A DNA stretch of 64,000 nt, taken from Eledone cirrhosa. Its lineage: Eukaryota. The stretch covers positions 226,238,001 to 226,302,000 of the forward strand of contig OZ024743.1 of NCBI GenBank assembly GCA_964016885.1. The letters are read 5' to 3'. Shown one piece after another: positions 12,250 through 59,989 of the stretch. The notes beneath the pieces were generated by a model. It saw only the letters and a program-made list of their open reading frames with translations, ran no database searches and was not told the DNA's origin. Position numbers and translations under genes: made by a program. How positions within the stretch are numbered: position 1 is the first letter of the stretch; every line of letters starts with the position of its first letter.

Positions 12250-12290
12250 ATATATATATATATAAATAAAGAAGCATATCTATTTATATA

Positions 12291-12942
<652 letters not shown>

Positions 12943-13706: not shown

Positions 13707-13906
13707 ATTAGAGTTAACACTTAATTGGAACCCTGCAACTATTAAGCTCCAAGTATAAATACTGAGCTGATAAATAATATATAGTAAGAAACACAGTAAA
13801 CCGTGTGTCTAAAATTACAAGGGTTGAAAAACCACATTTGTTTGAAATATTTAACCAAGAAGCAGACAGAATGATAAAATATACAAACCGCCTCAATAAC
13901 CATTAT

Positions 13907-13988
13907 ATCTCTCGGACAGATTATCCCTAATCTGTTTCGCCCTGAGTGTGTTTGTAACAGATAATCCTGGGCTTCATCAGCGAGAGAT
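13907..13988 (-). ncRNA. Type I hammerhead ribozyme
   Basis: Minus strand: ATCTCTCG-CTGATGA-A-GCCC..GGGC-GAAA-CAGATT aggg at AATCTG-TC^CGAGAGAT; 8-bp stem I, full stem III, GUC site. Confidence 0.9.
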
Positions 13989-14246
13989 TCTGATTAAATG
14001 CCACAAACACTATTTGCCAACGTTCACACAGAAAGATGAATTTGTCACCTCGTGCTCCGCTAGTCAAACGTGGTAAGCGTGTATTGAATAGAAATAGAAA
14101 TAACAGTCCAACACACGCAACTTAATAAGCTCAACTTTCGTGTCTAAAATTACGAGGGTATAAGATACCACTAATGTTTCAAAAATTTAATCTAAACCAT
14201 ACAGTATGATATATTAATTGTATACTGACCGTATCAAAAACATTTC

Positions 14247-14334
14247 ATCTCTCGGACAGATTTTAGACTCAATCTGTTTCGCCCTGAAAAATTATGTTTC
14301 TAACATAATCTGTAGACTATCATCAGCGAGAGAT
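14247..14334 (-). ncRNA. Type I hammerhead ribozyme
   Basis: ATCTCTCG-CTGATGA-..GTCT..GGGC-GAAA-CAGATT..AATCTG-TC^CGAGAGAT. Confidence 0.82.
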
Positions 14335-14613
14335 AGATTAAATGAAACAAAACACCTCTAACAGCAATTTGAGGACCAAAGATATGTTCCTTGTGGTCTA
14401 CACGCTATAAGTGGTATGAGTAGTTATGCTAGAAATTAATAACTCTATATTTTATTTGTATTTCGGCTCCTTGAATGGGTGAGCTTATACACTGAGTGGG
14501 ATAAGGCTATTATTTCTAGCATAACTACTCATACCACGTATAGCGTGTAGACCACGAGGAACATATCTTTGGTCCTCAAATTGCTGTTAGAGGTGGTTTG
14601 TTTCATTTGATCT

Positions 14614-14703
14614 ATCTCTCGCTGATGATAGTCTACAGATTATCTGTTACAAACACAATTTTTCAGGGCGAAACAGATTGAGTATAAAATCTGTCCGCGA
14701 GAT
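14614..14703 (+). ncRNA. Type I hammerhead ribozyme (inverted copy)
   Basis: ATCTCTCG-CTGATGA-..-GAAA-CAGATT..AATCTG-TC^CGCGAGAT. Confidence 0.82.
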
Positions 14704-14812
14704 GAAATGTTTTTGATACAGTCAGTATACAATTAATATATCATACTGTATGGTTAAGATTAAATTTTTAAAACATTAGTGGTATCTTATATATATATAT
14801 ATATATATATAT

Positions 14813-15498
14813 GAATAAGCATGTATACGTACATACATATATGTATACAGACGTACAGTAGTATGTATATATACATACATGCATATATATATACATATGT
14901 ACGTATGGATTCACCGAACATTTATTATAATGCTCGGTGTGTTTGTAAAGAAACATCCCGAATTAAGCCGTACAGTGTCTAGCAACCATCGTTGCTCATT
15001 TGTTCAACACTGACAAAGAAACGCTGTACTAGTTTCAAGCTTATTAGCTATCGTCAGCAACGTATACCTTCCTGCCAGATGGTTGAACGTCTGAAAGTAT
15101 ATACTTTCCTTATGCATATTAACGGCTGAGCAGCCTAATTTGCATATCAAGTGAGTTAATCGGCCGGGGTACCGAAAACGATAAACGGAAAAAATGAAAC
15201 GAAATTTCATTTCTTACTCTTAGTACGGCTGCTACTTAAATATAAGTATGTATACGTACACACATATATGTATACAGACGTACAGATATATACATACATG
15301 CACACATATATATATATGTACGTATGGATTCACCGAACATTTATTATAATGCTCGGTGTGTTTGTAAAGAAACATCCCGAATTAAGCCGTACAGTGTCTA
15401 GCAACCATCGTTGCTCGTTTGTTCAACACTGACAAAGGAACGCTGTACTAGTTTCAAGCTAGTGAGAAATAAAATTTCGTTTCATTTTTTCCGTTTAT
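14813..15498 (-). mobile_element. Family G retrozyme-like tandem repeat (unit about 420-450 bp), about 1.5 units with a short inverted end
   Basis: Period about 427 (14816 vs 15243); same family at 26490-26980 and 47540-48430. Confidence 0.85.
15021..15063 (-). ncRNA. Minimal type I hammerhead (family G)
   Basis: ACGTTG-CTGACGA-T-AGCT aata AGCT-T-GAAA-CTAG-TA^CAGCGT; palindromic CTAG in place of stem III. Confidence 0.85.
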
Positions 15499-15547
15499 AT
15501 ATATATATATATATAGAAGTGGTTACACAACAGTTACTTCACCATAC

Positions 15548-15585
15548 CGAGAACAATTGTTTCACCTTAGCGGATCCTCAGCTCA
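15548..15585 (-). ncRNA. Minimal type I hammerhead
   Basis: TGAG-CTGAGGA-TCCgctaaGGT-GAAA-CAATTG-TT^CTCG; short stem II. Confidence 0.7.
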
Positions 15586-15801
15586 TAATCTTTATGCGCT
15601 GACAATTGTTCTCGGTATGGTGAACTAACTGTTGTGTAACCAGTTCTACTTAACTCGTCCAATGGACTGGGTGCTCTACCACTACGGATGTTACCTTCCA
15701 GTGTTCTACCGCTATATATATATATGGGACGAGTTAGATAGAAGTGGTTACACAACAGTTAGTTCACCATACCGAGAACAATTGTCAGCGCGTAAAGATT
15801 A

Positions 15802-15839
15802 TGAGCTGAGGATCCGCTAAGGTGAAACAATTGTTCTCG
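15802..15839 (+). ncRNA. Minimal type I hammerhead
   Basis: Same motif on the plus strand. Confidence 0.7.
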
Positions 15840-16128
15840 GTATGGTGAAGTAACTGTTGTGTAACCACTTCTATATATATATATGCTATCATTGAATCAT
15901 TGAAGCCAGTGTTATGATGTACGTTTGAAGAATAAAAAGGAGGAGATCTATGACTGGACATTGAAACCAGTGGTGTGTTATTGTTTGAGGGAAAGACTAA
16001 GAGAGTGGAACTATATGACGGAACAGTGACTGAAGAGACAACAGTGCCTTATTAAGCTCTAATTAGTTACTTAGATATTCTGCCAAGAACATCTATCTGA
16101 TCTATAATTTGTTTTTTAATTATAAGTA

Positions 16129-17660: not shown

Positions 17661-17786
<126 letters not shown>

Positions 17787-18078
17787 ATATATATATATAT
17801 CTTTCTATTTATCTATCTATCTATCTATTTATCTATCTATAAATAATCTAGCTGTCGTCTGTTCTACAGCGTAGATGTAATTCACTTCGCGTAGAAGTTT
17901 TGTTCAAATTTATTGCGGAAATTTTGTAAGTTCAATTTTAATTTTGATACTGTTGTGTAGCTTGACCCCCCGTCTGAACTGTCAGGCGGTGGGTCAGCTC
18001 ATCTTTACCCCTTCTAGGGGTGAAAAACCTGTTTTTAAAAATTTTGTGGCATAAACAAATTTCAATCGTCTGACAGAA

Positions 18079-19978
18079 ATGTTAAACGAAGCTAACGAAT
18101 ATAGTGGTGGGGGGACAGCGGTAAGAGTTGTAAGCTCGCATGCTTTAGTCCCCCCCTTCCTTCCCAACTAACGTCATAGAGAAGGAAGGAAAAAATAAAA
18201 TAAAAACAGACGAATCTGCGGAAAAAAATGACGAAAACACAAATCTGGACATGGATTCCAACCACGAAAAAAAAAATTTGAAAAATTGCATGACAATATT
18301 AATACCACAAACAAAGACACAACAAACACAAAAATAACATTTGAAAACAACATCATAACAGAAAGCAAAGCAGACGACAAAGTCAACACCAATAAGATTT
18401 CATTTGCACAAACAACAAAGAAATCTTTGACATATATACCTGAAAATATTTCAGATGTGGCACAAAGAATTGCAGACGCCAAACAATATATAACTGAAGG
18501 AGAGAATGGTATTTTATCGGTAAAAATGCCTCAAGAACTCACCAAAGACATTGAAAGTCGAACGGTCGTTTTGCGCACCATCAACAACATTTCTAAAAAA
18601 CCTGAACAGCCAACTCAAACAGAAATCAAAACAGTACTTACAGAAGTACTTAATGAAACCACTTTCATGAGAAAAGACAGACTGTATGGAAGCCTAGCGA
18701 TTATTATGAAGAACGAATCGGCGGCAAAAAAATGTGCTTTGTCACCGATTCGTTCGAAAAATTTTACCTTTTATCTATCTTATATGAGTAAAAGAACTCA
18801 ACGCATATGGCTGGATGCAATGATGCCAGATGTGGACTACTGCTGGCTCATAGCTGGCTTCATCGATCCAGCGAATGACAACGTGATTTCCATTGGGAAA
18901 ACCACAAGCAATGCGTTCAGTGGAGCAGGTATAGAACTTGTAGTGCAAATGAAGCCTGAACGCATCGCCCAAATACCCGACAGAATCCTATTAGATGGCC
19001 ACGGGTATATAAACATTAGCGTGGAGGGGAGAAGGCCGTCCTGTCATATCTGTGCAGGCAGAGGGACCTGAAGGCGGCTTGTCCTCAACTCAACAAAAAG
19101 AAAACCCTGCTACCAACACCAGCTCCACCACCACCACCACAACAGATAAACAAACAACAAAACTCAGTCCCACCCAACCCGTCCCTCAGTAAAACTACAC
19201 CACCATCACAACACAAACAGTCACAACACATCACCCAAAACAAAATACAGGCCCACCCAACCCCTCACGCAATAAAACAACACAACCACCGCAGCCACAA
19301 CACACAACACAGTCTAACATAGTGACATCCATCTCCCCCACAAAGAAAACCAACACGGAAACATTACCAGCAAACATACCTCTTCCCTCCAACACTGAAG
19401 ATAACCCAACGAATTCGGAGGAAGGAACGGAGTCCTTCAGACAGATTAAAACGAAAAAAAGAAAACATGTGCAAAACACACAAGGCCAAACAACCCCCGC
19501 CCAAATGTCAACACAATCCAACAAAACACAAAACACCCCTCCAGCAATAAACAAAACCAAACCTGCCCCTCCCCTCTTCGAAACACTCACACCATCCGAA
19601 AAAAAGACATTACACTATACTTACATCAACAGAAACAATAATAAATTAAATGAACGCATAAACAATAATCCTTCGGTACAACCGAAGGTGTAAACTTTGT
19701 TTCTTCAGAAAACTACCCACATTTAAAATTAATAAAGATCCCAATGAACCTCTACCAAAAACTAAAAAAGGATTTTAAGGAGGACGTAGGACCACCCTCT
19801 GTCAAACCCATAAACCGCGTCATCCTAAAAAGCTTTCCCGCTCCCCTTCCCCTCCCCAACACAACTCCAAACACCCCAACCTCACCACACACTGACGACT
19901 CCACACCACCACAAGACACCCCTTCACCCAACACCCATGGAAGTCTTGCGACCCGAACCCCGGGAAGCAGAAAGGTAG
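18079..19978 (+). pseudogene. ORF1 of copy B, frameshifted
   Basis: ORFs 18286-19071, 19322-19693 and 19744 onward match copy A ORF1. Confidence 0.85.
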
Positions 19979-20011
19979 GTCTCTACACTCTCCTTTGGCT
20001 CTGCCGCCCAC

Positions 20012-23000
20012 ATGGATGTGTTAAGAGTAGGGTGTTTGAATGCACGTGGCCTGGGCTCAACTTGGAAGCAAGCAAAGCTTCTAAATGACCTCAGGTCATT
20101 TGGTATAAATGTAATGGTTATCTGTGCGACTCGGATCAGCGTCGTGCGGCAGCTGGCCTCTACCTTCGATGACTTGGAGGTGCATGCATCTCTCTGTCAA
20201 CCGTGAGGTGGGGTGGGGTTGTCGTACTGCTGCAAAAACATCTGGGTCTTGCCGTACAGGTTGTTCACTCGGACCCGGAGGGTCGTTTGTTGGTGCTAGA
20301 CGTTGGCAGTAATGAAGGTGCGGCCTTGAGACTGGTCGCCGTCTACTCCCCTTTCGGAGCTGAACGGCCCGACTTCATCCACCGTTTGGAGACTTTTCTG
20401 GGAACGTCGCGTTCCCTGCTTCTAGCGGGGGATTGGAATGACATCCTAGATGCACGTTGGGACTGTGCAGGAGCATGTCCTAATAGAGGAGGTGTAACAG
20501 CCTTAAGGGGTTACTCGGCCGTTTTAACTTGGTCGATAGATATCGACTAGATTTTCCAACTGTGCCTACCTGGACTTGCAGAAACCACAGTGGTCAATCT
20601 AGATCGTACTTAGATAGATTCTTAGTTAGAAGTAAGGATGGGGACATATTAAGCTGTCCAGAAATGCGCACGGTTGGCTATACGGATCACAAATTAGTGA
20701 CCTGCGTAGTCAATCTCGAGAAAACACATAAACAGGGTCCCGGTTACTGGAAACTTAATTTGTCTTTACCGGCAAAAGAGACTTACAGAAACAGGATTAG
20801 CAGATTAGTTAAGGAGAGGTTGACGGGTGCAATCGTCAACAACCGATGGTGGGCATCTCTCAAAAGAGAGATTAGAACAGAATCAATAAGTTATAGCAAG
20901 ATGTTAGCTGCCCATAGGAATAGAAACGAGAAAGAATTAACAGGTAAATTAGAAGAGGCAATGAAGAGCGAAGATGTGGCCAGAGTGCTGGCATCGAGGA
21001 CGGCCTTGAACCAGTTTTTCGATGCAAAGCACGAAGGCTGCGTCATTCGAAGTAAAATACGTGCTCTAGGTAATGAGGGGGCCAAAGCCGTTGGCTGGGC
21101 CCGCGTGACAGAAGCTAAGAGTGGAAATCGATCCACCATCCGGTCGTTGCAAGATGAGGATGGACGGGTGATCCGGGAGACTAAGCAGATGTGCGAGGCA
21201 TTTCAAAGGCACTTTGCATGATTATTCGGGGGAGGAGAGGGTCCGGGCGGGGACGTGGATTTCGGTCGATACCTCGACGGCCTGCCGCGTCTCTCGAGCG
21301 AAGAGGCAGATTCCTGCCAGGGACCAATCTCGGCTGATGAGATCGGGGATGCGCTGAGCCAATGCAGCAGACGCAAATCTCCAGGTCTCGATGGTATACC
21401 TTACAAACTTTATTTAGCAATGCCGGTCTTCTTCTCCGAACTCCTCGAAGCGGTCTACTGCATTTGGCAGCAGAACGGGAGAATTCTTTGTTCTGTAGCC
21501 AAGGGCGTAGTCTCGCTGGTGAGGAAGGACGAGAACAATGGGGATAGTATAAATAATTTTTGGCCCATAACCCTGCTAAACACAGAGTTAAAGATTTTGG
21601 CCAAGGTGTTAGCAAAGAGGTTGGCGCTTGTCGTGGGTAGCCTGGTGGGAGATGCGCAGACATGTGCTATCCTATCCAGGTCCATTCACGATAACCTCCA
21701 CCTCATGCGATACATCATAGAGAGGGTTGGCAACAAACCCGGCTTCGGTGGGGCCCTGATCAACTTGGATCAGTCTAAGGCCTTCGTTAGGGTCGACCAT
21801 GGTTACCTGGATGCGGTGCTAGCGGCGGCTGGGTTCGGTCCTGTTTTCAGAGGCTGGATCACTGCCTTACATAGCAACCACATCTGTTCTAGGATCAAGG
21901 TGAACGGCTACCTTTCGAAGCCGTTCGAAATCACACGATCCATTCGACAGGGGTGCCCTCTCTCCTCCCTTCTGTACGTATTGACTCTCGAGCCTTTACT
22001 GAGGAAGTTGGAGTTGTTGCAGGGTATCCCCCTGTAACCAGGATTGAGCAAAGCGGTGTCGGCCTACGCCGATGACGTAACAGTAATGGTATCGACCGAC
22101 TCGGAGATCGAGGCGATCGGTACCTTACTGGAGGATTACGAAAGGTTGTCAGGAGCGAAACTGAACCGGGAAAAATCCATCGGGCTGCAACTCGGAACGT
22201 GGAGAGGCAGACCGATGCCTCCCGACGGTGCCGTCGGACACTGGACGGAGGGCCCGGTAAAGTTGCTTGGGGTCTGGTTTGGACCGGACCTCCAGGTGGA
22301 AAAGAACTGGGACGAGGTTACGAACAAGGTGTTTGCACTAATCCAGAAATGGGCCAAGTGTAAGCTGTCCCTAAAAGGCCGGGCGGAGGTGGCGAACATT
22401 TACATAGCGTCCGTCACTCACTACCGCCTGACTGTCGTGCCTTGCCCTAAGGAAACACTCACCACCATGGAACGCATGATCTTCCAATTTCTTCGGAAGA
22501 AGCGCCCTCCTATGGTGAGAAGATCCATCTGCTGCCAACAACCTTCGAAAGGAGGGCTGGGGATGTCGTGGTTGATGATGCGTAGGCACGCATTAAGGCT
22601 ACGGCACCTACAGGTATTCCTCACTGGTCAACCGGTGTGGGCTCCGTTCGTGAAACGATTTTCCGAGACTCGTCTCGCTCACCGAGCTGCAGTCCCGGGT
22701 CAAGCAAAGATCCGGAAAACTGGGAGACTGGCACACTGAGTGTGCTCAGGCGCTCAGGGCTCTCTGGCAAGCGGGCCAGGCCATCGGTGGAGAATCCACC
22801 TCATCATTCTATAGAGGGCTGGTGGCTAGCAGGGGCGATGACATCCTTGGAGAGTCGCTGGACATGGAAGAGGACGAACTGGCCAGCCTGTTCGGTAGGA
22901 CTTTCGGCCCGGGACCAATGGACAACTTCCAGAAGTCACTAGCCTGGCAGTGCTACCGAGGGCTCTACCCGTTCGAGAGACGCTCTACAGACACGGGCGC

Positions 23001-23444
23001 CCGGGCAGGGATCCCTCGAAAAAGATTTGCCCTAGATGCGTGCGTCACGAAGAAACCGTTGCGCACGCATTGGTGCAATGTCCGGGCGTGGCTGATCTGT
23101 GGGGCTACGCCGAACGACTGCTGTCGCGGGTGGCGCCGATTCGATTGACCGCCGAGTCTGTGATGACAATCAAACCGCCTCCCCTCTTCACAAAGGAAGC
23201 AAAGGCGGTTTTTCTGTGCGTAATAGCCATGTTGAAAGAGGTTGTTTGGTGGACACGACTGAAAGGTCTGAGGTCAGGCAACTTCCTCTCTGGCCATAGT
23301 CTGGTCTACTTCTTCCGATATCACTTCGGAAGAAGGATAAGAATGGAGAGAGAGGTGCTTGGCCACAGCCAGTTTTATGAAAGGTGGGTGATAGTGGCGA
23401 GAATGGCTCGTGTAAATAGGCCTTCTCTGTATACCATCCTGTAG
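20012..23444 (+). pseudogene. ORF2 (APE-RT-Zn finger) of copy B, multiple frameshifts and stops
   Basis: Six consecutive ORF fragments matching copy A. Confidence 0.92.
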
Positions 23445-23658
23445 GTAAAGAAGTGAAGGAGAGGGGAGCACCTTCTCCATGTGCTCCCCGGGCAAAGGAT
23501 TGCACACTTTTTCGGGGGTGTGTGCAACCCCCATCACGTCCCCTCCCTTTTGAGGTTGTTTTCGATTATTTTCATTTTATACCCTTTTTACTCGATTGTA
23601 TGTAAACTCCCCCTTTGTATTTGTCCCTTCTTTTTATGCCTTTATGGTAAATAAAGAA

Positions 23659-23762
<104 letters not shown>

Positions 23763-23781
23763 ATATCTATATCTATATAAC

Positions 23782-23860
<79 letters not shown>

Positions 23861-23865
<5 letters not shown>

Positions 23866-24137: not shown

Positions 24138-24370
24138 TATAGATATATATATATAGTAAGAATAATAAATTTGAAGACTAAAATCCAAAGAGGGCTCGAT
24201 AAGGATAAATATATATATAGAGATTTTGAGTATATGTTGGTTGTATACCAACACCATAGTATGCAGGCTGGAGCACTCGACGAAGTGCGTAGGTTGGTTT
24301 GGTTACTCCGGGGTAATGTAAAATAAAGTTAAATAAAAAGTCAAATGTTTAAAATTTAGCTTCGTTTATT

Positions 24371-24425
24371 ACAGCTATATATATTTCAGTGACAACCATC
24401 TTTGGCTGTGACCTCTTCAGGCAGT
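24371..24425 (-). ncRNA. Type I hammerhead (family H)
   Basis: ACTGC-CTGAAGA-GGTCACAGCCA aaga TGGTTGTCACT-GAAA-TATATA-TA^GCTGT. Confidence 0.78.
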
Positions 24426-24644
24426 TTGAATTAGTGTGGTATAGACAAGTACATATGTTGTTGAGGTGTATAATATTGTCAATACTCTGATATGCCCAGT
24501 TGCTGGTTGGGTTGTTAATTCACTGAGGAACTGGAATCATATGATTCATATGATTCCATTTCCTCAGGAACTGGACATATCAGAGTATTGACAATATTAT
24601 ACACCTCAACAACATATGTACTTGTCTATACCATACTAATTCAA

Positions 24645-24699
24645 ACTGCCTGAAGAGGTCACAGCCAAAGATGGCTGTCACTGAAATATATATAGCAGT
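24645..24699 (+). ncRNA. Type I hammerhead (family H)
   Basis: ACTGC-CTGAAGA-stem II-GAAA-TATATA-TA^GCAGT. Confidence 0.85.
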
Positions 24700-24744
24700 A
24701 ATAAACGAAGCTAAATTTTAAACATTTGACTTTTTATTTAACTT

Positions 24745-24827
<83 letters not shown>

Positions 24828-26351: not shown

Positions 26352-26489
26352 GAGAGAAGTCTAATATACTGTACACAAAACACTTTATTTAAATTGTCAA
26401 CATAACATTTCACTACATATTTATTGATATACACATATGCACACAACGGAGAGGATATACGAATTATGTATATATATATATATACATAT

Positions 26490-26980
26490 AAGTATGTATA
26501 CGTACATACATATATGTATACATACGTTCAGTAGTATGTATATTTATACATACATGCACATATATATATATATATGCATGTATGGATTTACCGAACATTT
26601 ATTATAATGCTCGGTGTGTTTGTAAACGAACATCCCGAATTAAGCCGTACAGTGTTTAGCAACAAGGAAGGTGCTGACGATAGCTAATAAGCTTGAAACT
26701 AGTACATCGTTCCTTTGTCAGTGTTGAACAAAAGGGCAACGATGGTTGCTAAACACTGTACGGCTTAATTCGGGATGTTTGTTTACAAAGACACCGAGCA
26801 TTATAATAAATGTTCGGTAAATCCATATATGCATATATATATATATGTGTGCATGTATATATATATATACATACTACTGTACGTCTGTATACATATATGC
26901 ATGTACGTATACATACTTATATTTAAGTAACAGCCGTACTAAGAGTGAGAAATGAAATTTCGTTTCATTTTTCCGTTTAT
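26490..26980. mobile_element. Family G copy arranged as an inverted repeat
   Basis: 26490-26663 is the reverse complement of about 26745-26920. Confidence 0.85.
26670..26710 (+). ncRNA. Minimal type I hammerhead (family G)
   Basis: GGTG-CTGACGA-TAGCTaataAGCTT-GAAA-CTAG-TA^CATC. Confidence 0.82.
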
Positions 26981-29176: not shown

Positions 29177-30870
29177 TCAGGTTATAAATTGGGTGTTGAG
29201 TTCTAGTCTATTATTGATTGGTGGTTGTGTTTTATCTATAATTAGTGCTTCCTTAATTCTAAGATTGCCGAGGTTTCTTTCCTTACTTTCTATCCTAACT
29301 GTTATGGTTTTGTCGGTGTTTTTGCATTTAACTAGGTGTTTCTTAAATGAGGAAGCGTTAGAATTGAGGTGTTCTTTTATTCTTATGTGGAGTGGTCTGG
29401 TGGTGCTAGTTACGTAGAAGTTGTTGCATTTGTCACACTCTAGTCTGTATACGACGTAAGCCTGGTGGCATAGGTCTGTGTCGTTGATGGGGCAATTGGC
29501 TAGTCTGCAGCAGTTGTCATGTCTGGTGGAGTGTCTTTTGGTTAGCTGTCCGCGTAGAGAAGGACCTGAGTGGGCCAGTTGGATATCTAGTCCCTCTCGT
29601 CTGATAGCTCTGCGGATGGCTGTTGTTGTTTCTTCACTGGAGTGTGGGAGCTTCAGGAAGCAAGTGTTAGTGTCTCGGGTGTGGTGTCCTCTGTTCTTTC
29701 TGGCACGGTTTGTGGTGGATCCGTTCAGTTTGAGTACTTCCAGGAAATGTGTGGTGTGTGTGTCTCGGTCTCTAGCGTCGGTGCATTTGTTCTGGATACG
29801 TGCCAGTTCGTTCCTTATGTATCCGAACTTGGCACCGAGTGGGAGGGCCGATCTGAAATGTACGAACAGGCCCCTACTGGCGGCTTTTTATTTATAGAAG
29901 CAGGTGTGGATGTTGCCTCCCTCTGTTACCCTGAGTTGGAAGTCCAGTAGGGATAGGGATCCGCGGTCATCGGGGTGTTCCATGCTGAACTTTATACTGG
30001 CGTCCATGCTGGAGAATGTTGCGTATATTTTATCTGCCTCCTCACGGGATGATGTAAGGATGAGTATGTCATCTACATATCGGGTGAAGAAGGTATGGGA
30101 ATGGCAGGTGTTGAGGGCTCGGCATTCTAGCTGGTTCATGTAGGTGATGGCCAGCAGTCCCGATAGGCTGGATCCCATGGGTAATCCTGCTGTCAGTCTG
30201 TATGTGTGGTGGTGGAAGGTGAAGTACGTGTTGTCTACTGTGAAGGACAAAAGCTGGTGTATGTCCGTCGGGTGGAGGCCGTAGCAGTGGATGTCCTCTG
30301 CGACCACGCAGTCTGTCAATAAATCGACAGCTGGATGGGCGGCGACTGTAGTGTAGAGGGAGACAACGTCGAGGCTAAAGGCGTATTTATTTAGTTTAAG
30401 TTGTTCTGGCTGGAGTTGGTGTAGTCTACGTATAACTTCGTCGGAGCTACTGACATGCCCGGGAAAGGTGGAGAGTAGAGGCTTGAGGACCTGGGAAAGG
30501 AGCCAGAAAATTTTGTATAGGGGTCCTTCTATGCTAGAGACGATGGGTCTTATTTGCGTCTTAGTACTCTTCTTGTGGGTCTTGATGAGGTGGTAGAAAG
30601 TGGGCAGTCTGCTATTTCTAGTGGTGTAGTTGAGCTTAACTTTATTTGGGAGTTGTCTTCTCCTACAGATATCGAACCAGATGGAGTTGGTCTGTTTTTC
30701 GATCTGGGCTGCAGTCATGTCCGGGATCTCTGTGTATAATTCATTGTCGCTTAGGTGTTCAAAGGCTACGTTGTTGTATGTGGCTTGAGAGATGACACAA
30801 AACTCTTTACCTTTGTCGGATGGTAAGTATATAAGTTCCCTATTCCGTAGGTTCTTCAGGGCGAGTTGTT
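29177..30870 (-). pseudogene. P1 RT-GIY-YIG ORF (one in-frame stop at 29888)
   Basis: PSDKGKEF, KTHK..RPIVS, DVVSLY, GLPMGS, RYVDD; my manual translation continues CRLANCP..C..VVYRLECDKCNNFYV..RIKEH..EAL..IN to TGA at 29177. Confidence 0.88.
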
Positions 30871-31425
30871 GAACATACTACACTGCCAATACAGAGGAAC
30901 AAGGCAACAACACACGCACATACACACAAGCGAGACAACAACACACGCACACACACAGTAACATTTAACAAACAGACAGAGAATTGGCTGACAGCTAGCG
31001 CCAACCCACTCCCACATTCGGCCGCTGACCTCTGCCCGACCGACCCCATTTCATGCGCACGCGCGCTCTGCTGAATACCTCAGATATTCAAAACAACAAA
31101 CAGCGGAGGACGCGTTTCGCACCTTTCCGACAGATAACCTTTCCCCCAACCCGGAAAAAAACACCAGTTGATGGATGTGAATCCGAAATATATAGGGACT
31201 ATTAAATCTCTCCCAAGGTAACTCTCTCTCTCTGGTGTTGTTATTTTTATTTTATCCTTTATACTCTTTCCTTTATTCTTCTACACGCCTTATACACACC
31301 ACGCATCTCAACGTACACCCACTTACATCTCTCTCTCCACCACCGGATCTTGTTACCCGGAGATTTACCCATTTGCATTGTCGAGGCTTCCAAACGACTT
31401 AAAGATATTTACCTATTATTCCACA

Positions 31426-34024
31426 ATGCTTCAAGCCAACTTCAATACTCTATTATCCTTACACCTGGGCCAGGAATTGTTTGCATCCGTAAGGGAGCTG
31501 TTTAGACTGTCGGAGAAATGGGCCAACGCTGGCTGTCAAATTATTTTCCTTAAACGCTGCCTAAAAAACGATGTCATCCCCAACACCATCAGGAACATCC
31601 GCTTACCAGTAAGCCTACGTACACCAGCTTTCCAAAACACCACTAACCGCATACATCGCACGTGTATTAAACAGATCCTGAGACATCTCAACCGCCAATT
31701 ACACGTCCATAAGCGGACACTCTCAAAGCGGACACTTCGACTGTCAATAGCACCCGGGGACTTGCTCCTGAAAATCACTAAAGCAATCGACCAGTGCTAC
31801 CACTCCAGAGTCCAATACGAGAAAAAACGGCTCAAGCGAAAATATGAGTGGATCTTGTCGAAACGCCACAACGAGAATATCGACACTAACGAACAGACGG
31901 ACCAGAACCACTTGGAAAACAACAACTTAACAACCGCCACCGCCGCATCCACAAACACCGAGCCACACCTCAACGATGCGACGCACCTGGTCACTGACCT
32001 AACCGGCACTCTCACGAACGACGAGCTGAAACTCCTACACCTCGGACTCAAGTTCATCGTCTCACAACGTCTCGACGACAGACTGAAACTCAACATCGAG
32101 GCCAACTTTTGTCGAGCCGCTTACCAACTTAAATGGGTGACCGCCATCAATAGCGCCACAGAAAATAACAGCGCCTACGCAACCCACCCCAAGTTCCCCA
32201 CTTACCACCGAGACAACCCACTCCACCTCCACCCTCCAACCACGAACTCGACACTAAACTCATCAGGCTAAAACACTCCATCTCGGATATACTTCACAAA
32301 CACACACACGCACAACACATAACCTCACCAAATATCAACTCACCACTCTCTCCAACCTAAAATCGAAGAACCTCATCTATCTCCCCTCCGACAAAGGAAA
32401 AGAATTCTGCGTCATCAGCAGAGAGGCCTACAACACCCTGGCCCTCCAACACCTTGACGATGACAACCTCTACTCCAAGGTCACAGGAATCACTCCCGCG
32501 CAGATAGAAGAGCACATCAACGCCGCCTGGACCAACATCTGCGACCGGCGGAAGCTCCCGAAGAAGCTGAGATACAACCTCCTCACGAGGAACAGCAGAC
32601 TACCCGCCTTCTACCACCTCGTGAAAACACACAAACAGGGACCCGACCTGAAGATCAGGCCCATTGTATCGAGCGTGGAGGGACCACTCTACAAAATTTC
32701 ATGGCTCCTAGCCAGAATACTCAAACCCATCTTAGACACCTTGCCGGGACACATTAACAGCTCCGAGGAGGTGTTGAAGCGCCTGCATCAAATGGATCCC
32801 GACACCAGAAGGAATAACAGATATGCCTTCAGCCTTGATATAGTCGCTCTCTACACCTCGGTCCCGGCACTCCCGGCCGTCAATATACTGATGGAACGCG
32901 TCCAATCCACCGACCTACACTGCTTCGGGCTCACCACCACTGACATCCACCAACTCCTATCCATCGTCGTCGTCAACACCTACTTCGGATTCCTTGACCA
33001 AACATACCAACAAACCTCGTGATTGCCCATGGGATCAAGCCTGTCGGGTGTGCTAGCGATCTCTTACATGGACAACATCGAGCGCAAGGCACTCAACGCC
33101 TGCCACCCTAACGCCGTCGCCTTTTTCTCAAGGTACGTGGACGATATCTTCATCCTCACATCTTCCCAAGACACGGCAAACAGAATATATGAGACGTTCA
33201 ACAACACGGACGAGAACATTGACTTCAGTGTTGAACACCCCAACGAAGACGGGTCACTTGCCCTCCTCGACTTCCGAATCAACATCACGTAACAGGGAAG
33301 GATCCACTGCAACTTCTACCGAAAGGCAGCCTGCAGGAACCTGTTCGTTCACTACAAGTCCGCCCTCCCTAACAGTGCCAAAAGAGGATACATCACGAAC
33401 GAGATCGCGCGAATCAAAAACAGATGCAGCGATCCTGCGTGTGGTGTCTCTCATACCAAGCGATTCATCGAGGTGCTGGAGACGAACCCTACCTCGCTCA
33501 CAGACAGAGCAGGAGACACCAGACACAAGAGACAGAGATGCACCCAAGGCAAGTGCTTCCTTAAAATGCCACACCTGGGCGAGAATACCACCAACGCTAT
33601 CCGCAAGGCTATACAGAGGGGGGCGAGGCTCGACATCCACCTGGCCCACTCGGGCCCCTCCCTGCGAAGATGCCTCTCCAGGAAACCCGGGAAATCAACT
33701 GACGCGTGCTCCCTCAGAGACTGCCTGATACGCCATTCGAACTGTTGCCTACGCACATACGTCGTGTATAAGATAGAATGTGACAGGTGCAACCAATAAT
33801 ATATAGGTAGCACAATCCGACCTTTGCACATCCGGATCAAGGAACACACTAAATCCAGAGCCTAGTCTTTCCGGAAACACATAGACAAATGCGGAAACAA
33901 AGACGGAAGGCCCATTGTCACAATTCTTGCGACTGAAAGAAACGTCGGCACGTTACGTATCAAACGCCTGACACCGCAAATAAACAATCGATCCGAGAGA
34001 AGCGAAATGAGGTGGCTGGTTTAA
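31426..34024 (+). pseudogene. P2 RT-GIY-YIG ORF, disrupted
   Basis: FLKRC..VIP N-terminus, KTHK, DIVALY, PMGS, RYVDD, Cys linker, VVYKIECDRC..YIG; several stops and frameshifts. Confidence 0.9.
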
Positions 34025-34420
34025 GTTAACAAACGATGCAGCAACACACGCACACACACACACAAACGAGACAACTACACACGCACACGCACACACACAC
34101 AGTAGCATTCCACCATACGAACATACTACACTGCCAATACAGAGGAACAAGGCAACAACACACGTACACACACACACACTCAAGCGAGACAACAACACAC
34201 ACACACACACACACACAGTAACATTTAACAAACAGGCAGAGAATGGACTGACAGCTAGCGCCACCCCACTCCCACATTCGGCCGCTGACCTCTGCCCGAC
34301 CGACCCCATTTCACGCGCACGCGCGCTCTGTTGAATACCTCAGATATTCAAAATAACAAACAGCGGAGGACGCGTTTCGCACCTTTCCGACAGACAACCT
34401 TTCCCCCACCCCGGAAAAAA

Positions 34421-34456
34421 CCCCAGTTGATGGATGTGAATCCGAAATATATAGGG
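34421..34456 (+). ncRNA. Variant-core minimal hammerhead-like motif in the P2 pLTR (also 31162-31197 and 56697-56731)
   Basis: CCC-CAGTTGA-T-GGAT gtga ATCC-GAAA-TATA-TA^GGG; core deviates from CUGANGA. Confidence 0.55.
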
Positions 34457-34659
34457 ACAATTAAATCTCTCCCAAGGTAACTCTCTCTCTCGTGTTGTTA
34501 TTTTTATTTTATCCTTTATACTTTTTCCTTCATTCTTCTACGTACACCCACTTACATCTCTCTTTCCACCACCGGATCTTGTTACCCGGAGATTTACCCA
34601 TTTGCATTGTCGAGGCTTCCAAACGACTTAAAGATATTTACCCATATATATATATATAC

Positions 34660-36699: not shown

Positions 36700-40498
<3,799 letters not shown>

Positions 40499-40641: not shown

Positions 40642-40818
40642 ATTGGCAGTACCGGTATATGGTCTGACGCCATGTTTGCAAAGAGTTACGGCCCTTTATG
40701 GTCTGACTTCAAATGCCGCCGAGGTTAACTTTGCCCTTCATCCTTACGGGGTCGATAAAATAAAGCATCAGTAAAACACTGGGATAACTGCTGGCCTTGT
40801 GCCAAAAGTAGAAACAAG
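40642..40818 (+). mobile_element. tRNA-derived SINE, MetaSINE-like core
   Basis: TTCAAATGCC B-box-like motif; TTTGCCCTTCATCCTTACGGGGTCGATAAAATAAAG core. Confidence 0.85.
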
Positions 40819-40949
40819 TATATTAGTGTTTGCTATTGGTTCGTATATTTCTTTCGTTAACTAAATTTTTAATATTTAATTTTGGCTAACATTATGCGTA
40901 ACTCTTTCCATATGTGTAAACATCTATGTTTATACATCAAGCAGTTATG

Positions 40950-45889: not shown

Positions 45890-46245
45890 ATATATAGTTC
45901 CTCAGATATACTGCTATATACAGTTCCCCAGAGAAATAACAACACAACTAGCTGCTGGACATATCGATGTATTGACGGAGTAAAACACGCTTCAACAACA
46001 TGTGTACCAGTCTTTCCCACACCAATTCGGACTGCCTGAAGAGGTCACAGCCAATGATGACTGTGACCGAAATATATATATAGCAGTATATCTATAATTT
46101 ATAATAAACGAAGCCAAATTTTACATATTTGACTTAATTATTTTACATTACTCCGAAGTAAACAAACCAGCCTGCGTACTCCGTCGAGTGCTCCAATCTG
46201 GATAATGCTATGTCGTTAAAGAACCATCATATACTAACAAAAAAA
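45890..46245 (+). mobile_element. Family H element, single arm
   Basis: Diverged homolog of 24222-24750. Confidence 0.8.
46031..46087 (+). ncRNA. Type I hammerhead (family H)
   Basis: ACTGC-CTGAAGA-GGTCACAG..CTGTGACC-GAAA-TATATATA-TA^GCAGT; perfect stems I and II. Confidence 0.9.
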
Positions 46246-46391
46246 AAATCTATATATCTATATACATACATATATATATATATATAAACACATATACACA
46301 TACATATACACACATACACGCAATATCTGTACATACAGGCACATACACATACATATATATATACACACGCATATACAATATAAGAACAAAA

Positions 46392-47331: not shown

Positions 47332-47398
<67 letters not shown>

Positions 47399-47445
47399 AA
47401 TAAGATAACAAGGACGATTGATTACGTCTTGATTACGTTTATTGG

Positions 47446-47535
47446 ATGGTGACGCGCGTTTCGCGACTAATCATCTCAAGGTTCGATCTGTATCGATCTG
47501 AGCTGGCTCTGTAATCCGCGGTTCGTCAGGCCCAT
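47446..47535 (-). ncRNA. Hammerhead-like motif with long branched stem II
   Basis: ATGGGC-CTGACGA-..GCGG..TCGC-GAAA-CGCGCG-TC^ACCAT; stem I imperfect. Confidence 0.6.
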
Positions 47536-47653
47536 TGTAATGTTACATACAGGCATACATACATACATATATATATATACCGTATACCTTTCTGCCAGAT
47601 GGTTGAACGTCCGAAAGTATATACTTTCTTTATGAAAATTAACGGCTGAGCAA

Positions 47654-47690
47654 CTGACGATAGCTAATAAGCTTGAAACTAGTACATCGT
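47654..47690 (+). ncRNA. Family G hammerhead lacking the 5' strand of stem I (at the junction)
   Basis: CTGACGA-TAGCTaataAGCTT-GAAA-CTAG-TA^CATCGT. Confidence 0.65.
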
Positions 47691-48098
47691 TCCTGTGTCA
47701 GTGTTGAACAAAAAGGTGACGTGGTTGCCTAAACACTGTACGGCGTAATTCAGGCTGTTTGTTTGTTTACAAACGAACAAACCGAGCATTATAATAAATG
47801 TTCGGTAAACTTTGACGTGCATATATATATATATATATATGTGTGCCTGTATGTATATATGTACATGCTACTGTACGTCTGTATACATATATGTATGTAC
47901 GTATACATACATACTTACATTTAAGTAAGTGCCGTACTAAGAGTGAGAAATGAAATTTCGTTTCATTCTATTCCATTTATCATTTTCGGTGCGCCTGTCC
48001 GACTGAACTCGCTCGATATGCAAATTAGCCTCTCAGCCGTTAATTTTCATAAGGAAAGTATATACTTTCGGACGTTCAACCATCTGGCAGAAAGGTAT

Positions 48099-48141
48099 AC
48101 GGTGCTGACGATAGCTAATAAGCTTGAAACTAGTACATCGT
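48099..48141 (+). ncRNA. Minimal type I hammerhead (family G)
   Basis: ACGGTG-CTGACGA-stem II-GAAA-CTAG-TA^CATCGT; 6-bp stem I. Confidence 0.88.
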
Positions 48142-48458
48142 TCCTGTATCAGTGTTGAACAAAAAGATGACGTGGTTGCCTAAACACTGTACGGCGTAAT
48201 TCAGGCTGTTTGTTTGTTTACAAACGAACAAACCGAGCATTATAATAAATGTTCGGTAAACTTTGACGTGCATATATATATATATATATATGTGTGCCTG
48301 TATGTATATATATACATGCTACTGTACGTCTGTATACATATATGTATGTACGTATACATACATACTTACATTTAAGTAAGTGCCGTACTAAGAGTGAAAA
48401 ATGAAATTTCGTTTCATTCTATTCCATTTATATATATATATATATGTATATATATATG

Positions 48459-48504
<46 letters not shown>

Positions 48505-48602
48505 CATATATGTATATATATATATATTTATAAACAGTTCTAGTCCTGTAGAATCTCTTATATATATATATATATATATATGTATATTTATATATATGTA
48601 TG

Positions 48603-48716
<114 letters not shown>

Positions 48717-49401
48717 CATATATATATAAGGGCACATTAATAAGTGTTCGACCTTGTACATTTATATGAACCACGTGAACAAATGTTTAAGTCTTTGAAA
48801 AACAGCGAAAGATGATTTAGAAATCCAATGATGTACCTGTGCCTACAGCAGGCTCGGATTAGTTATATGATACATTAAATTACATAAATATTTATTTATT
48901 AAATAGATGCTTTAAATACAAATAAATTGACCATAGCATATATTAGACGGAAATAATTGGAAATCATGGAAAAAAAGCATATAAACATTGTTGACATTAA
49001 GAGGAATTTCATATATCTGAGTGACTTCTTTCTTAAATCAGATTCATAAATATTATAATTGAATAAATACATAAAAACGAATTTGTTTACTTATTTTGAA
49101 ATTTAGAAATGAATAACAAACGGAAAAGATTGATAGTTATCGTACATTCTCTATTCTATTGTATATGATATATTTTATATATTAACTGAGGAATTTTGAA
49201 GTTATAATTCTTCGTCTAACGATTGTAGCTTCATGTTAATAAACATGGACAGAAATTTGTTGGACTTCAATTGTCTGAGGATGCCTCTACAGCGTTACTC
49301 GACCTGCTAGATATATTAGCAATATCATCCTTATCAGAATTGACACGCTTGATTATTTGGATGTTATAATGCTGAGGGTTGAGATGGGGACGGTTTCTAA
49401 A

Positions 49402-49588
49402 TAATTGTTTCTACTTTTGGCACCAGGCCAGCAATTACCCCAGTGCATTACTGGTGCTTTATTTTATCGAACCCTATAAGGATGAAAGGAAAAGTTAACC
49501 TCGCTGGGCTTTGAACTCAGATCGTAAAGGACTCTAACTCTATGCTGCAAAGCATGGCGTCCGATCCTCTACTGTTACTGCCAATCCA
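49402..49588 (-). mobile_element. MetaSINE-like SINE
   Basis: Reverse complement of the 50405 family. Confidence 0.85.
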
Positions 49589-49734
49589 CGGTTTCTAAAT
49601 AATGCTGATAGTTATTAAATGCCTCGTAAGCATTTGCCAATTCGGGTGACGAAAGATAAACTGGAAATCAGTTTATAGGTAGATTTTATACCACTTTGAT
49701 AATGACTAGGGAATGGTGGTTAACTTTGTAACAG

Positions 49735-50404: not shown

Positions 50405-50598
50405 TGGCGGTGAATTGGCAGTATCGGTAGAGAGTCGGACGCCATGCTTTTCAGCGTAGTTTCGCCCCTTTACGGTCTGAGTTCAAATCTCGTCGAGGTT
50501 AACTTTGTTTTTCATCCTTACGGGGTCGATAAAATAAGGTACTAGTAATGTACTGGGTAATTGCTGGCCTTGTGCCAGAGGTAGAAACAATTATTAAC
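50405..50598 (+). mobile_element. MetaSINE-like SINE
   Basis: TGGCAGTATCGG A box, GAGTTCAAATC B box, TTTCATCCTTACGGGGTCGATAAAATAAG core, TAGAAACAATTATTA tail. Confidence 0.88.
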
Positions 50599-50928
50599 TA
50601 ACCTTAGATTATATACGTTAAACCTTTTGTTGTAGTCATATACGTCTTGTAAGTGTAGTCTAAGTAATATAGCTATGTCCGTAGAAACTGGCTGATGTAA
50701 CAAGCTCAACTTCTCATCAAATGACAATCAGTGGTATTTAGCATCCATGAGCGTATCACCTATCATTCTTAAAACGGTGGAAAAATTCGAAGTGCGTTTT
50801 GCATCAATAAAAAAACAAAACATTTGATAACTCGTATATGAATCAAAATAATAATACAAATATTAATACAAATATTAATACAAGTTCTTGAATATTTGTT
50901 TGCATGTTTCCATGTCTACATTTTAAAA

Positions 50929-51834: not shown

Positions 51835-52020
51835 GGGCGGTGGATTGGCAGTATCGGTAGAGGGTCGGACGCCATGCTTTCCAGCATAGTTACGTCCCTT
51901 TACCATCTGAGTTCAAATCCCGCCGAGGTTGACTTTGCCTTTCATCCTTACGGGGTCGATAAAATAAAGTACCAGTAATGCACTGGTAATTGCTGGCCTT
52001 GTGCCTAAAGTAGAAACAAG
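51835..52020 (+). mobile_element. MetaSINE-like SINE
   Basis: Same family as 50405. Confidence 0.88.
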
Positions 52021-52108
52021 TATATAATATATTCATTCATATATAAATACACACAAATATATATATATATGAGTATATATATATACATGTGTGAATAATA
52101 TATATATA

Positions 52109-52634: not shown

Positions 52635-53613
52635 TTGTATATACATACACATGTACAGCTATATATATATATATACATAGTTTATATATACTTATCTCTC
52701 ATTATATATACTTATCTCTCTCTATCTCTATCTCTTTCTCTCTCTATCTCTCTATCTCTCTATATATATATTCCTATGTATGTATGCGTGTGTATTTATG
52801 TACATGTGTATAGGTGGGCGTGTGACGTGTATTTATATGCACATGATGTGTAGGTTTGTTTGCATAGGCAGACGTGCACGTCATATGGATGATTTTATCT
52901 TTCGATTGAGAAGTGCGGCCATATTAAGTTTGAGCAGTTGAAATATAAAGTCAACGTAATTAAATTGGACAAGGACTAGTTTGTCATAATGACTGCACAT
53001 ACTATCAACTAATTCACTGAGAATGTCTTTGCAGTACTTAAACTGCCATAATTTTCAATAACTGCTACTCAACTAAATGAACATTTAACGGAATAATTAT
53101 GAATTACTATTTAGATTGTCTCTCCAAGGGCTTGGATCGCTTTTAACTTGACAAGAAATGCCACACAAGACATGGATTACAATCTGAGCTAAGTGATAAA
53201 ACGAAAGAATGAATTAATTTCCTAACAAGTCCACTTGCTTGCTTTTAAATTATATTTCCGTACAATACACCAATACGAGCGGCGTAGGATAAATGTGAAG
53301 CAGTTTAGTGTTTCCGCTTTATAAATACTGGTTCGAATTGCATTGACCCTGTCACAAATATATCGGAGCGTAGTTTGTTTTTATTATAGATTTCGTATGT
53401 AGTTACAAGGAGAGGAGTAAATAGATTCGATTACATCAGCCCTTGGACTTTACTGATACGCCATCTTACATACAACATATTAACATTATTAACACGTTAC
53501 ACTATAAACATACTCGGTCAAGCGCTAAACAACCACTTTTATAGTTTTCCATGATCGAAGCTTATCGGCATTATACAACAATACATTTGAGCATGTTTTC
53601 ACAATGGCTATGG

Positions 53614-53670
<57 letters not shown>

Positions 53671-53695
53671 CATCTCTCTCTCTCTCTTTCTCTCT

Positions 53696-57117
<3,422 letters not shown>

Positions 57118-59317: not shown

Positions 59318-59975
59318 GGTGGGTTGGTAGTATCAGCAGAGTGTCGAACGCCATGCTTTCCAGCATAGAGTTTCATCCCTTTACAGATTAAGTTCAAATC
59401 CCGCCGAGGTTCTCTTCGCCTTTCATCTTTACGAGGTCGATAAAATAAAGTACCAGTAATTTACTGGGTAATTGCTGACTTTGCGCCAAAAGTAGAAACA
59501 ATTATTATTATTTGTGTTTCCTCTCTTCCTTGAATTTTGGTTTCCTTTCTTGCTTAGTGGCTTCCCGACATTATTAGGCAGTAATCGGTAGAGCATCGGA
59601 TAACATGCTTCGTAGCATAGAGTTACGTCTCTTTAGGTTCTGAGTTGAAATCCCGTCGTGGTTAGCTTTGCCTTTGCCCTTCATTCATACTGGGTCGATA
59701 AATTAAAGCACCAGTCACGTGGTGGGGTCCATTTAATCGACTTTCCCCTCCCCCAAAATTGCTGGCCTTGTGCCTATATAAGAAACCATTATTATAGTAT
59801 CGATAGAGGGTTGGACGCCATGCTTTCTAGCATAGTTACGTCCCTTTACAGTCTGAGTTCAAATCCCGCCGAGGTTAACTTTGCCTTTCTTCCTTATGGG
59901 GTCGATAAAATAAAGTACCAGTAATGTACTGGTAATTGGTGGCCTTGTGCCTAAAGTAGAAACAATTATTATTAT
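59318..59975 (+). mobile_element. Three tandem MetaSINE-like SINEs (59318-59510, 59576-59794, 59796-59975)
   Basis: Each has the GGTCGATAAA.TAAAG.ACCAG core and TAGAAAC/AAGAAAC.ATTATTA tail. Confidence 0.88.
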
Positions 59976-59989
59976 TTTGTTTCTCATTC

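What the first reader, a model, noticed from the sequence alone, without database searches (positions are those of the whole stretch)
47540..48430. Family G: a 451-nt ORF-less tandem unit with one hammerhead per unit, a candidate circular-RNA retrozyme
Seen: head-to-tail period 451 (predicted cleavage after 47684 and 48135) with no coding capacity; three independent loci in this window (14813, 26490, 47540) with different permutations and inversions; stem I co-varies between loci (ACGTTG/CAGCGT vs ACGGTG/CATCGT). Established: non-LTR retrozymes are short tandem units processed into monomeric circular RNAs. Inference: the permuted multimeric inserts reflect rolling-circle reverse transcription of a circRNA.
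Basis: partly seen in the sequence, partly recalled or inferred. Interest (0 to 1): 0.78.

Follow-up and report, generated by a model that had tools for sequence, protein, structure and literature searches.

The report
Hammerhead mini-retroelement with Penelope-type insertions
This is a short, protein-free jumping element with a self-cutting RNA motif, of a kind already known in animals; its insertion scars point to a Penelope-type enzyme copying it from one fixed start point for more than one full unit, as a circular RNA template would allow.

Summary
Real, and a known kind. The 451-nt unit (47654-48104) has no long reading frame, one type I hammerhead with a palindromic helix III, and folds strongly (z -6.7). 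The locus is 1.7 units plus a 74-nt inverted piece. Two corrections. First, the three loci are not random permutations: all end at the same unit position and run into (TA)n, as do 55 + 47 contigs of a run of the same species label, and each has an inverted 5' segment. That is the published Penelope-like (PLE) insertion anatomy, and PLE RT/GIY-YIG genes lie in the window. Second, the first hammerhead here has lost stem I; no locus has two intact ribozymes, so these look like daughter copies. Copies run through the predicted cut site five times, none of six 5' ends stops there, and units within an insertion are each other's closest relatives. This fits a circle read for more than one lap, but also an uncut transcript of a homogenised array. 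No RNA data, genome or parent element could be examined. Verdict: new member of the animal non-LTR retrozymes / non-autonomous PLE passengers (about 0.85); circular template about 0.5.

The parts
47654..48104 (+). Complete 451-nt unit (unit positions 1-451, counted from the first base of the hammerhead core)
48105..48431 (+). Second, partial unit (positions 1-327), ending at the fixed 3' end; 4 substitutions against the first
47579..47652 (-). Inverted 5' segment (unit positions about 377-450); its outer end abuts, in unit coordinates, the start of the forward part
47648..47690 (+). Hammerhead a: core, helix II and cut site (after 47684) intact; 5' strand of stem I lost at the inversion joint (2 of 6 pairs)
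48099..48141 (+). Hammerhead b: intact type I motif, 6-bp stem I, 4-bp helix II above a U.U mismatch, palindromic helix III; cut after 48135
47981..48104 (+). 124-nt stretch between the fixed 3' end and the next hammerhead; its last part pairs with the bases after the cut site to extend stem I
48400..48418 (+). Conserved hairpin just upstream of the fixed 3' end (first copy 47949-47967); candidate signal for the RT start (inference)
48429..48728 (.). (TA)n microsatellite into which the element's 3' end runs (presumed target)
47536..47578 (-). Ambiguous TA-rich piece resembling unit positions 162-212; a second fragment or chance microsatellite likeness (its 12-mer also occurs at 46330)
14818..15460 (-). 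Locus 1, inverted segment: 643 nt, more than one full unit (period 419); one intact hammerhead (15063-15021) and one 5'-truncated; cut sites after 15446 and 15027
15461..15498 (+). Locus 1, forward 38-nt piece ending at the fixed 3' end, then (TA)n
26489..26663 (-). Locus 2, inverted segment (unit positions 71-260)
26670..26980 (+). Locus 2, forward segment from just upstream of the hammerhead (5 of 6 stem I pairs) to the fixed 3' end, then (TA)n

Best explanation
Family G is a non-autonomous retroelement of the animal non-LTR retrozyme type, copied by the RT/GIY-YIG protein of a Penelope-like element. Steps: (1) a source locus with two or more units is transcribed (inferred); (2) two hammerheads swap their palindromic helix III strands and cut after each GUA, releasing a 420-451-nt monomer (motif shown, activity inferred); (3) the monomer is ligated to a circle by a host ligase (inferred from mussel and axolotl retrozymes); (4) a PLE protein nicks (TA)n DNA and starts reverse transcription at a fixed internal site 296 nt downstream of the cut, just past a conserved hairpin (fixed end and target shown; enzyme inferred); (5) the RT runs through the ribozyme junction, sometimes for more than one lap, giving partial tandems whose units are sisters (read-through and sister units shown; the circle inferred); (6) the other target strand primes a second cDNA, giving the inverted 5' segment (anatomy shown; mechanism from PMC11167929). 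The three loci are daughter insertions, each with at most one intact ribozyme. Class assignment about 0.85; the stated confidence is for the whole chain with a circular template.
For: Fixed 3' end into (TA)n at 3 of 3 loci (chance of three ends within +-1 nt about 4e-5). In run X1, 55 contigs break off at 47980 into TA repeats and 47 at 47967 into the variant form of the same end. Inverted 5' segment at 3 of 3 loci. Same-strand stretches of 778, 643 and 311 nt, all longer than the 296 nt that a cut linear monomer allows; 0 of 6 5' ends at the cut site. Units within an insertion are sisters: of 21 informative columns, 15 join L3a+L3b, 4 join L1a+L1b, 1 joins the two L2 pieces, 1 crosses loci, none joins first-with-first or last-with-last units; bootstrap 100, 92, 51. 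Stem I pair read as G.U, U.G and probably A-U; the G>T and T>G changes have matching shares in X21 (434/8182 and 494/8454 on one strand, 5659/10522 and 6281/12416 on the other). The two listed variable sites inside 48105-48135 are N7 and loop II. Double hammerhead -19.0 against -1.1 kcal/mol for the single fold. Monomer folds at z -6.66 and -7.75, 0 of 100 shuffles each, with a shared architecture. PLE genes in the window: RVT_1 or GIY-YIG hits in 5 of 9 frames tested; two of these elements end in (TA)n.
Against: No RNA evidence of any kind. None of the three insertions reaches two full units, which a free-rolling RT might exceed; a linear source of limited length explains that easily (n=3). 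In vitro a PLE hammerhead was not needed for insertion, uncut RNA was the main substrate, and no reads ended at the cut site (PMC11167929). Eight of nine Xenopus retrozyme dimers did not cleave in vitro (bioRxiv 2026.07.22.740005). The motif lacks the G-C pair at the base of helix II and has no Rfam match. Core conservation in the run data is not significant alone (0 of 12 core sites among 38 listed variable sites, P 0.17; 18 rows not shown). Part of the folding score comes from self-complementary TA/TG repeats. L2's two pieces differ by 5.1%, near the between-locus 5.4-9.3%. No autonomous partner with a clearly shared end was found. X1 may be the sample the window came from.
Confidence: 0.5

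Rival explanations
1. Same element and same PLE enzyme, but the template is an uncut linear read-through transcript of a tandem source locus whose units are homogenised by DNA-level processes; the hammerhead cuts rarely or only trims flanking host RNA.
For: Uncut RNA was the dominant substrate of a PLE protein in vitro (PMC11167929). All three insertions hold under two units. Palindromic helix III motifs cleave poorly unless dimerised (PMC4209133). 3 of 6 5' ends fall within or just upstream of a hammerhead (post hoc P 0.014), which could mark a transcript start as well as an RT pause.
Against: Needs separately homogenised sources for each lineage: the L3 type differs from L1/L2 at 15 informative sites plus indels and both L3 units carry all of them. 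None of the three loci is a long array, and none has two intact ribozymes.
Confidence: 0.3
2. The template is a linear monomer, and the RT makes tandems by jumping from the 5' end of one molecule to the same or another molecule.
For: PLE copies are typically followed by a second copy in tandem (PMC8969392 passage). Jumping back onto the same molecule would also give sister units.
Against: The unit-to-unit sequence is seamless at the cut site and at the fixed end in L1 and L3, no joint from 47980 is listed in the runs, and 0 of 6 5' ends lie at the cut site.
Confidence: 0.1
3. The copies are only 5'-truncated pseudo-LTR ends of an autonomous PLE elsewhere in the genome, not an independent ORF-less element.
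For: The anatomy is that of PLE ends; Xenopus retrozymes are related to PLE pLTRs (bioRxiv 2026.07.22.740005). The genome could not be searched, and 380 loose-end rows were not shown.
Against: At L1 and L3 the sequence upstream of the hammerhead runs back into the element's own 3' end within 124 nt, leaving no room for an ORF. Contigs in X1, X4 and X6 also read through that point. No shared end with the window's PLEs. A parent that donated the ends may still exist.
Confidence: 0.07
4. A DNA-level repeat (fold-back element, satellite seed or repair-made duplication) in which the hammerhead-like motif is chance.
For: The region is rich in microsatellites and palindromes; no Rfam support.
Against: One fixed end with variable, inverted other ends is a reverse-transcription pattern; the motif is far beyond chance and its stem I changes on both sides.
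Confidence: 0.03

Closest known systems
Metazoan non-LTR retrozymes (coral, mussel, axolotl; PMC7229834; PMC7761336; bioRxiv 10.64898/2026.07.22.740005)
   Same: ORF-less head-to-tail unit, one type I hammerhead each, GC under 50% (37%), strongly self-paired monomer, no LTR-type layout, PLEs in the same genome. The U.U at the base of helix II recalls axolotl HHR_Amex2.
   Different: At the top of the published 150-450 bp range, within the 51-972 bp of the 2026 survey. Seen here as dispersed insertions under two units with a fixed 3' end, inverted 5' segment and (TA)n target; the parts of these papers that I read do not describe that anatomy. Circular RNA not shown here.
EN+ Penelope-like elements (Penelope/Poseidon, Neptune, Naiad; PMC8557442; PMC11167929; PMC4209133)
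   Same: Partial tandem, 5' truncation, inverted 5' copy, fixed internal RT start downstream of a hammerhead, palindromic helix III, microsatellite insertion bias. Two loci have inverted segments starting about 60 nt short of the main end, like the PLE 'tail'.
   Different: No RT/EN ORF; the whole element is 420-451 nt. The putative tail is about 60 nt rather than 30-40 nt and rests on two loci in TA-rich sequence.
Non-autonomous Chlamys PLE derivatives such as MRC1 (PMC8557442 passage)
   Same: ORF-less PLE passengers with pLTR-like partial tandems and head-to-tail insertions.
   Different: Algal; most Chlamys lack canonical hammerheads; they share 3' ends with autonomous families, which could not be shown here.
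Newt satellite 2 and Schistosoma Sm-alpha hammerhead repeats (PMC6155905 passages)
   Same: Few-hundred-bp tandem repeats with a type I hammerhead; the newt motif works as a dimer.
   Different: No sequence comparison was made; G was seen as short dispersed insertions, and long arrays could not be checked.

Membership tests
Metazoan non-LTR retrozyme | Head-to-tail unit of a few hundred bp | tested here: met
   451 nt at L3, 419 nt at L1
Metazoan non-LTR retrozyme | One type I hammerhead per unit (core, helices I-III) | tested here: met
   no Rfam support
Metazoan non-LTR retrozyme | No protein-coding frame | tested here: met
   longest stop-to-stop frame in the repeat 77 aa; the short frames were not searched against protein libraries
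Metazoan non-LTR retrozyme | GC under 50% and highly self-paired monomer | tested here: met
   GC 0.37, 67% paired as a circle; z -6.66 and -7.75
Metazoan non-LTR retrozyme | An 'active' locus: two consecutive units with complete hammerheads (criterion of the 2026 preprint) | tested here: inconclusive
   0 of 3 window loci meet it; source loci elsewhere could not be searched. This concerns activity of a locus, not membership of the family
Metazoan non-LTR retrozyme | Self-cleavage at the predicted site | not testable with these tools
   needs in vitro transcription
Metazoan non-LTR retrozyme | Accumulation as monomeric circular RNA | not testable with these tools
   no RNA holder listed
Metazoan non-LTR retrozyme | Co-occurrence with autonomous PLEs | tested here: met
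   RT and GIY-YIG frames at 29177-30877, 37140-40244, 53591-56298
PLE-mobilised element | Fixed 3' end with variable 5' truncation | tested here: met
   3 of 3 loci; 55 + 47 contigs in X1
PLE-mobilised element | Partial tandem and inverted 5' copy | tested here: met
   inversion at 3 of 3 loci, partial tandem at 2 of 3
PLE-mobilised element | Microsatellite or AT-rich target | tested here: met
   (TA)n after the 3' end at 3 of 3 loci
PLE-mobilised element | 30-40-nt 'tail' from two RT start sites | tested here: inconclusive
   L1 and L2 inverted pieces start about 60 nt short of the main end, in TA-rich sequence; that region was skipped
PLE-mobilised element | 3' sequence shared with an autonomous partner | tested here: inconclusive
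   only a 14-of-16 match near the 3' end of the PLE at 37140-40244, p 0.04-0.05 in one of 27 comparisons; the rest of the genome was unavailable
Autonomous PLE | RT plus GIY-YIG ORF | tested here: not met
   the unit closes on itself within 451 nt
Plant LTR retrozyme | Type III hammerhead in LTRs | tested here: not met
   the motif is type I; PBS and PPT were not searched

The most novel reading that the evidence does not exclude
These insertions record a Penelope-type RT starting at a fixed internal site on a ribozyme-made RNA circle and running more than one lap, from either nicked target strand. That would be genomic evidence for the proposed but unshown idea that circles regenerate the tandem structure that PLEs need, and G would be a 450-nt minimal substrate, with a mapped start site, for testing it in vitro.
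Probability: 0.45. Interest if true: 0.62.

Novelty: new member of a known kind. Interest (0 to 1): 0.4.

Why it matters
The class is published, and the link from retrozymes to PLEs has been proposed from shared ribozymes, co-occurrence and pLTR homology. A 2020 review says that animal retrozymes show no motif that reveals their mobilising partner (PMC7761336). Here the insertion scars supply that link: fixed end, inverted 5' copy and (TA)n target. How PLEs rebuild more-than-unit copies, and what their hammerheads are for, is still open: a circle was proposed in 2014 (PMC4209133), while 2024 in vitro work found uncut RNA to be the main substrate (PMC11167929). A very abundant 450-nt family with a mapped start site lets the two be told apart by counting insertion lengths and by a circle-versus-linear template assay.

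Tried and rejected
Whole-genome search: no genome is held. Exact pattern scans for the ribozyme or the 3' hairpin found 0 loci in metagenome contigs, viral contigs and genome contigs. Sequencing runs: 23 listed, no RNA holder listed; this says nothing about expression. The read-end piles in RAD-seq run X21 (47954, 48026, 48042, loose ends at 48199) all sit at AATT sites and were rejected as library cuts; so were joints next to those sites. The 16-fold fall in X1 depth just past the fixed end agrees with most copies ending there but is partly an alignment effect, so it is not used as a copy count. Rfam hits at E<=10 are TA/TG-repeat matches to miRNA and similar models, all below gathering score. 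A 13-nt match to the PLE at 31222/53591 lies inside its coding frame: chance. An apparent G>A bias in L3 weakened on polarising (3 G>A in L3b, 1 A>G in L3a, 1 G>A in the inverted piece). Single-sequence folding of the 43-nt ribozyme does not return the hammerhead fold and is not significant, as expected for a weak helix III. Random permutation was rejected. No protein homology search or clade tree was run for the window's PLEs. Earlier findings: one irrelevant note by sequence, none by words or place.

Full report
Setting. The window looks like animal DNA crowded with microsatellites (116 rows), LINE-like frames and Penelope-like elements. Of 9 frames tested, 3 hit RVT_1 and 2 hit GIY-YIG, three of the five below the curated cut-off. 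No whole genome is held. Unit positions below count from the first base of the hammerhead core (47654 or 48105); the predicted cut follows position 31.

The observation. The 451-nt period is exact: 48105-48431 repeats 47654-47980 with 4 substitutions in 327 nt. The core motif occurs 4 times in the window and never in 100 shuffles. The longest stop-to-stop frame inside the repeat is 77 aa. The intact ribozyme (48099-48141) has a 6-bp stem I, a 4-bp helix II above a U.U mismatch and a palindromic helix III. This matches the description of metazoan type I motifs that work as dimers (PMC4209133). The double-hammerhead fold evaluates at -19.0 kcal/mol against -1.1 for the single fold. Rfam does not recognise it. 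The only listed variable sites inside the core span are N7 and loop II, but this is not significant alone (P 0.17 on 38 listed sites, 18 rows unseen). Monomers from L3 and L1 fold at z -6.66 and -7.75 with a shared long extension of stem I; TA/TG repeats contribute to that score.

Mapped on the unit, L3 is an inverted piece (379-450), a full unit and a partial unit ending at 327. L1 is an inverted 643-nt stretch of more than one unit plus a forward 38-nt piece ending at 327. L2 is an inverted piece (71-260) plus a forward piece from just upstream of the ribozyme to 327. All three end at the same base and run into (TA)n. In run X1, where 5160 contigs were laid, 55 break off at 47980 into TA repeats and 47 at 47967 into the variant spelling of the same end (6 X1 loose-end rows shown, 380 rows over all runs not shown; X1 may be the window's own sample). 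So the loci are not random permutations. Fixed 3' end, 5' truncation, partial tandem, inverted 5' copy and microsatellite target are the features described for PLE insertions (PMC8557442). A purified PLE protein nicks and extends both target strands and starts at fixed internal sites downstream of its hammerhead (PMC11167929), which accounts for both the fixed end and the inversion. The L1 and L2 inversions begin about 60 nt short of the main end, near the loop of a conserved hairpin; this may be a second start site like the PLE tail, or priming on TA-rich sequence (P about 0.016 under a uniform model). The first ribozyme at L3 keeps 2 of 6 stem I pairs, L2 keeps 5 of 6, and L1's first copy lacks the start of the core. 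No locus has two intact ribozymes, so these are most likely daughter copies.

What the template was. A cut linear monomer would allow 296 nt from the fixed start to the cut. The observed same-strand stretches are 778, 643 and 311 nt; they cross the cut site five times, and 0 of 6 5' ends lie at it. The template was therefore a circle, an uncut multimer, or a molecule that the RT re-entered. Units within an insertion are sisters: 20 of 21 informative columns group copies by locus and none by first or last position, with bootstrap 100, 92 and 51. A two-unit linear master copied without homogenisation would group first units with first units; that is not seen. A circle gives sister units at once. 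An uncut transcript does so only if each source array is homogenised. Against the circle: all three insertions are under two units; L2's pieces are 5.1% apart; uncut RNA was the main substrate in vitro and the ribozyme was dispensable there; 8 of 9 Xenopus dimers did not cleave. I put the circle at 0.5, the uncut multimer at 0.3, template jumping at 0.1.

Partner. None was identified. The PLE at 37140-40244 has a C-X4-C-X2-C linker before its endonuclease, the motif associated with Neptune elements and microsatellite bias, and ends in (TA)n. It shares 14 of 16 bases with G near both 3' ends, but at p 0.04-0.05 among 27 comparisons this is only a lead. The PLE ending at 34645 also ends in (TA)n.

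Comparison with what is known. Animal non-LTR retrozymes are established, with circular RNA shown in coral, mussel and axolotl and PLEs proposed as the mobiliser (PMC7229834). A 2026 preprint ties them to PLE pLTRs by co-occurrence and homology. Circles as the source of more-than-unit PLE copies were proposed in 2014. In six searches of the held library I found no paper that maps fixed ends and inversions for a retrozyme family; subscription papers and Repbase are outside that library. What I saw: bioRxiv 10.64898/2026.07.22.740005 parts 1-3 of 5 (abstract to discussion; supplements not seen); PMC7229834 parts 2-4 of 6 (supplement unreadable; its figure S9 may show insertion anatomy); PMC11167929 parts 1-2 of 4; PMC4209133 parts 1-2 of 4; passages only of PMC8557442, PMC6155905, PMC8969392 and PMC7761336.

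Verdict. A genuine, very abundant ORF-less hammerhead retroelement: a new member of a known kind. The added value is the PLE-type insertion signature and the read-through of the cut site, which make a standing question about PLE replication testable. Interest 0.40.

Noticed in passing
window 24209-24754 and 45921-46263: A second ORF-less-looking hammerhead family (cores at 24650+, 24420-, 46036+; TA-palindrome helix III, long helix II). The 24.3-24.75 kb copy is an inverted repeat ending in (TA)n; the two loci are about 74% alike.
   Followed up: partly
window 15503-15884: A third hammerhead family directly beside locus 1: an inverted repeat (88.5%) with cores at 15806+ and 15581-, both arms ending at the same site in (TA)n, as if both target strands were primed at one start site; each arm has an internal direct repeat.
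   Followed up: partly
window 13805-14791: A fourth family with hammerhead-like cores (14326-, 13980-), a 630-nt inverted-repeat layout (90%) and an older 74% copy upstream; it abuts locus 1. These cores did not pass the structure-aware scan.
   Followed up: partly
window 47395-47535: Just upstream of the finding, on the minus strand, a degenerate hammerhead-like motif with a palindromic helix III; no other copy in the window.
   Followed up: partly
window 36830-36870, minus strand: The 3' end of a Neptune-like PLE shares 14 of 16 bases with Family G unit positions about 270-285, in both cases close to the (TA)n junction; weak.
   Followed up: partly
run X6, laid on window 47931-48209: A single 478-nt contig at depth 8 under another organism label covers the fixed end, spacer and ribozyme without a break; 478 would equal a 448-nt unit plus a 30-nt overlap, as a cyclic contig gives. 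One end was not shown, so this is unverified.
   Followed up: no
window 30871-34645 and 53786-56988; 29177-30877: Two 92%-identical copies of a PLE with RT then GIY-YIG, pseudo-LTRs (30871-31416 and 34119-34645) and a (TA)n junction; a 65%-alike relative lies inverted just upstream. All have broken frames.
   Followed up: partly
window 6234-12422 and 17695-23863; 34-2550: Two 95.6%-identical 6.2-kb LINE-like elements with two frames, and a 69%-alike relative at the window start.
   Followed up: no
window 40642-40826, 49392-49589, 50406-50603, 51836-52033, 59318-59520, 59795-59983: A dispersed family of about 185 nt, six or more copies at 76-92% identity in both orientations.
   Followed up: no
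Family G 5' ends at 15460, 26670, 47654: Three of six 5' ends fall within or just upstream of a hammerhead, 14-35 nt past the cut site (post hoc P 0.014): an RT pause at the structured ribozyme, or a transcript start.
   Followed up: partly
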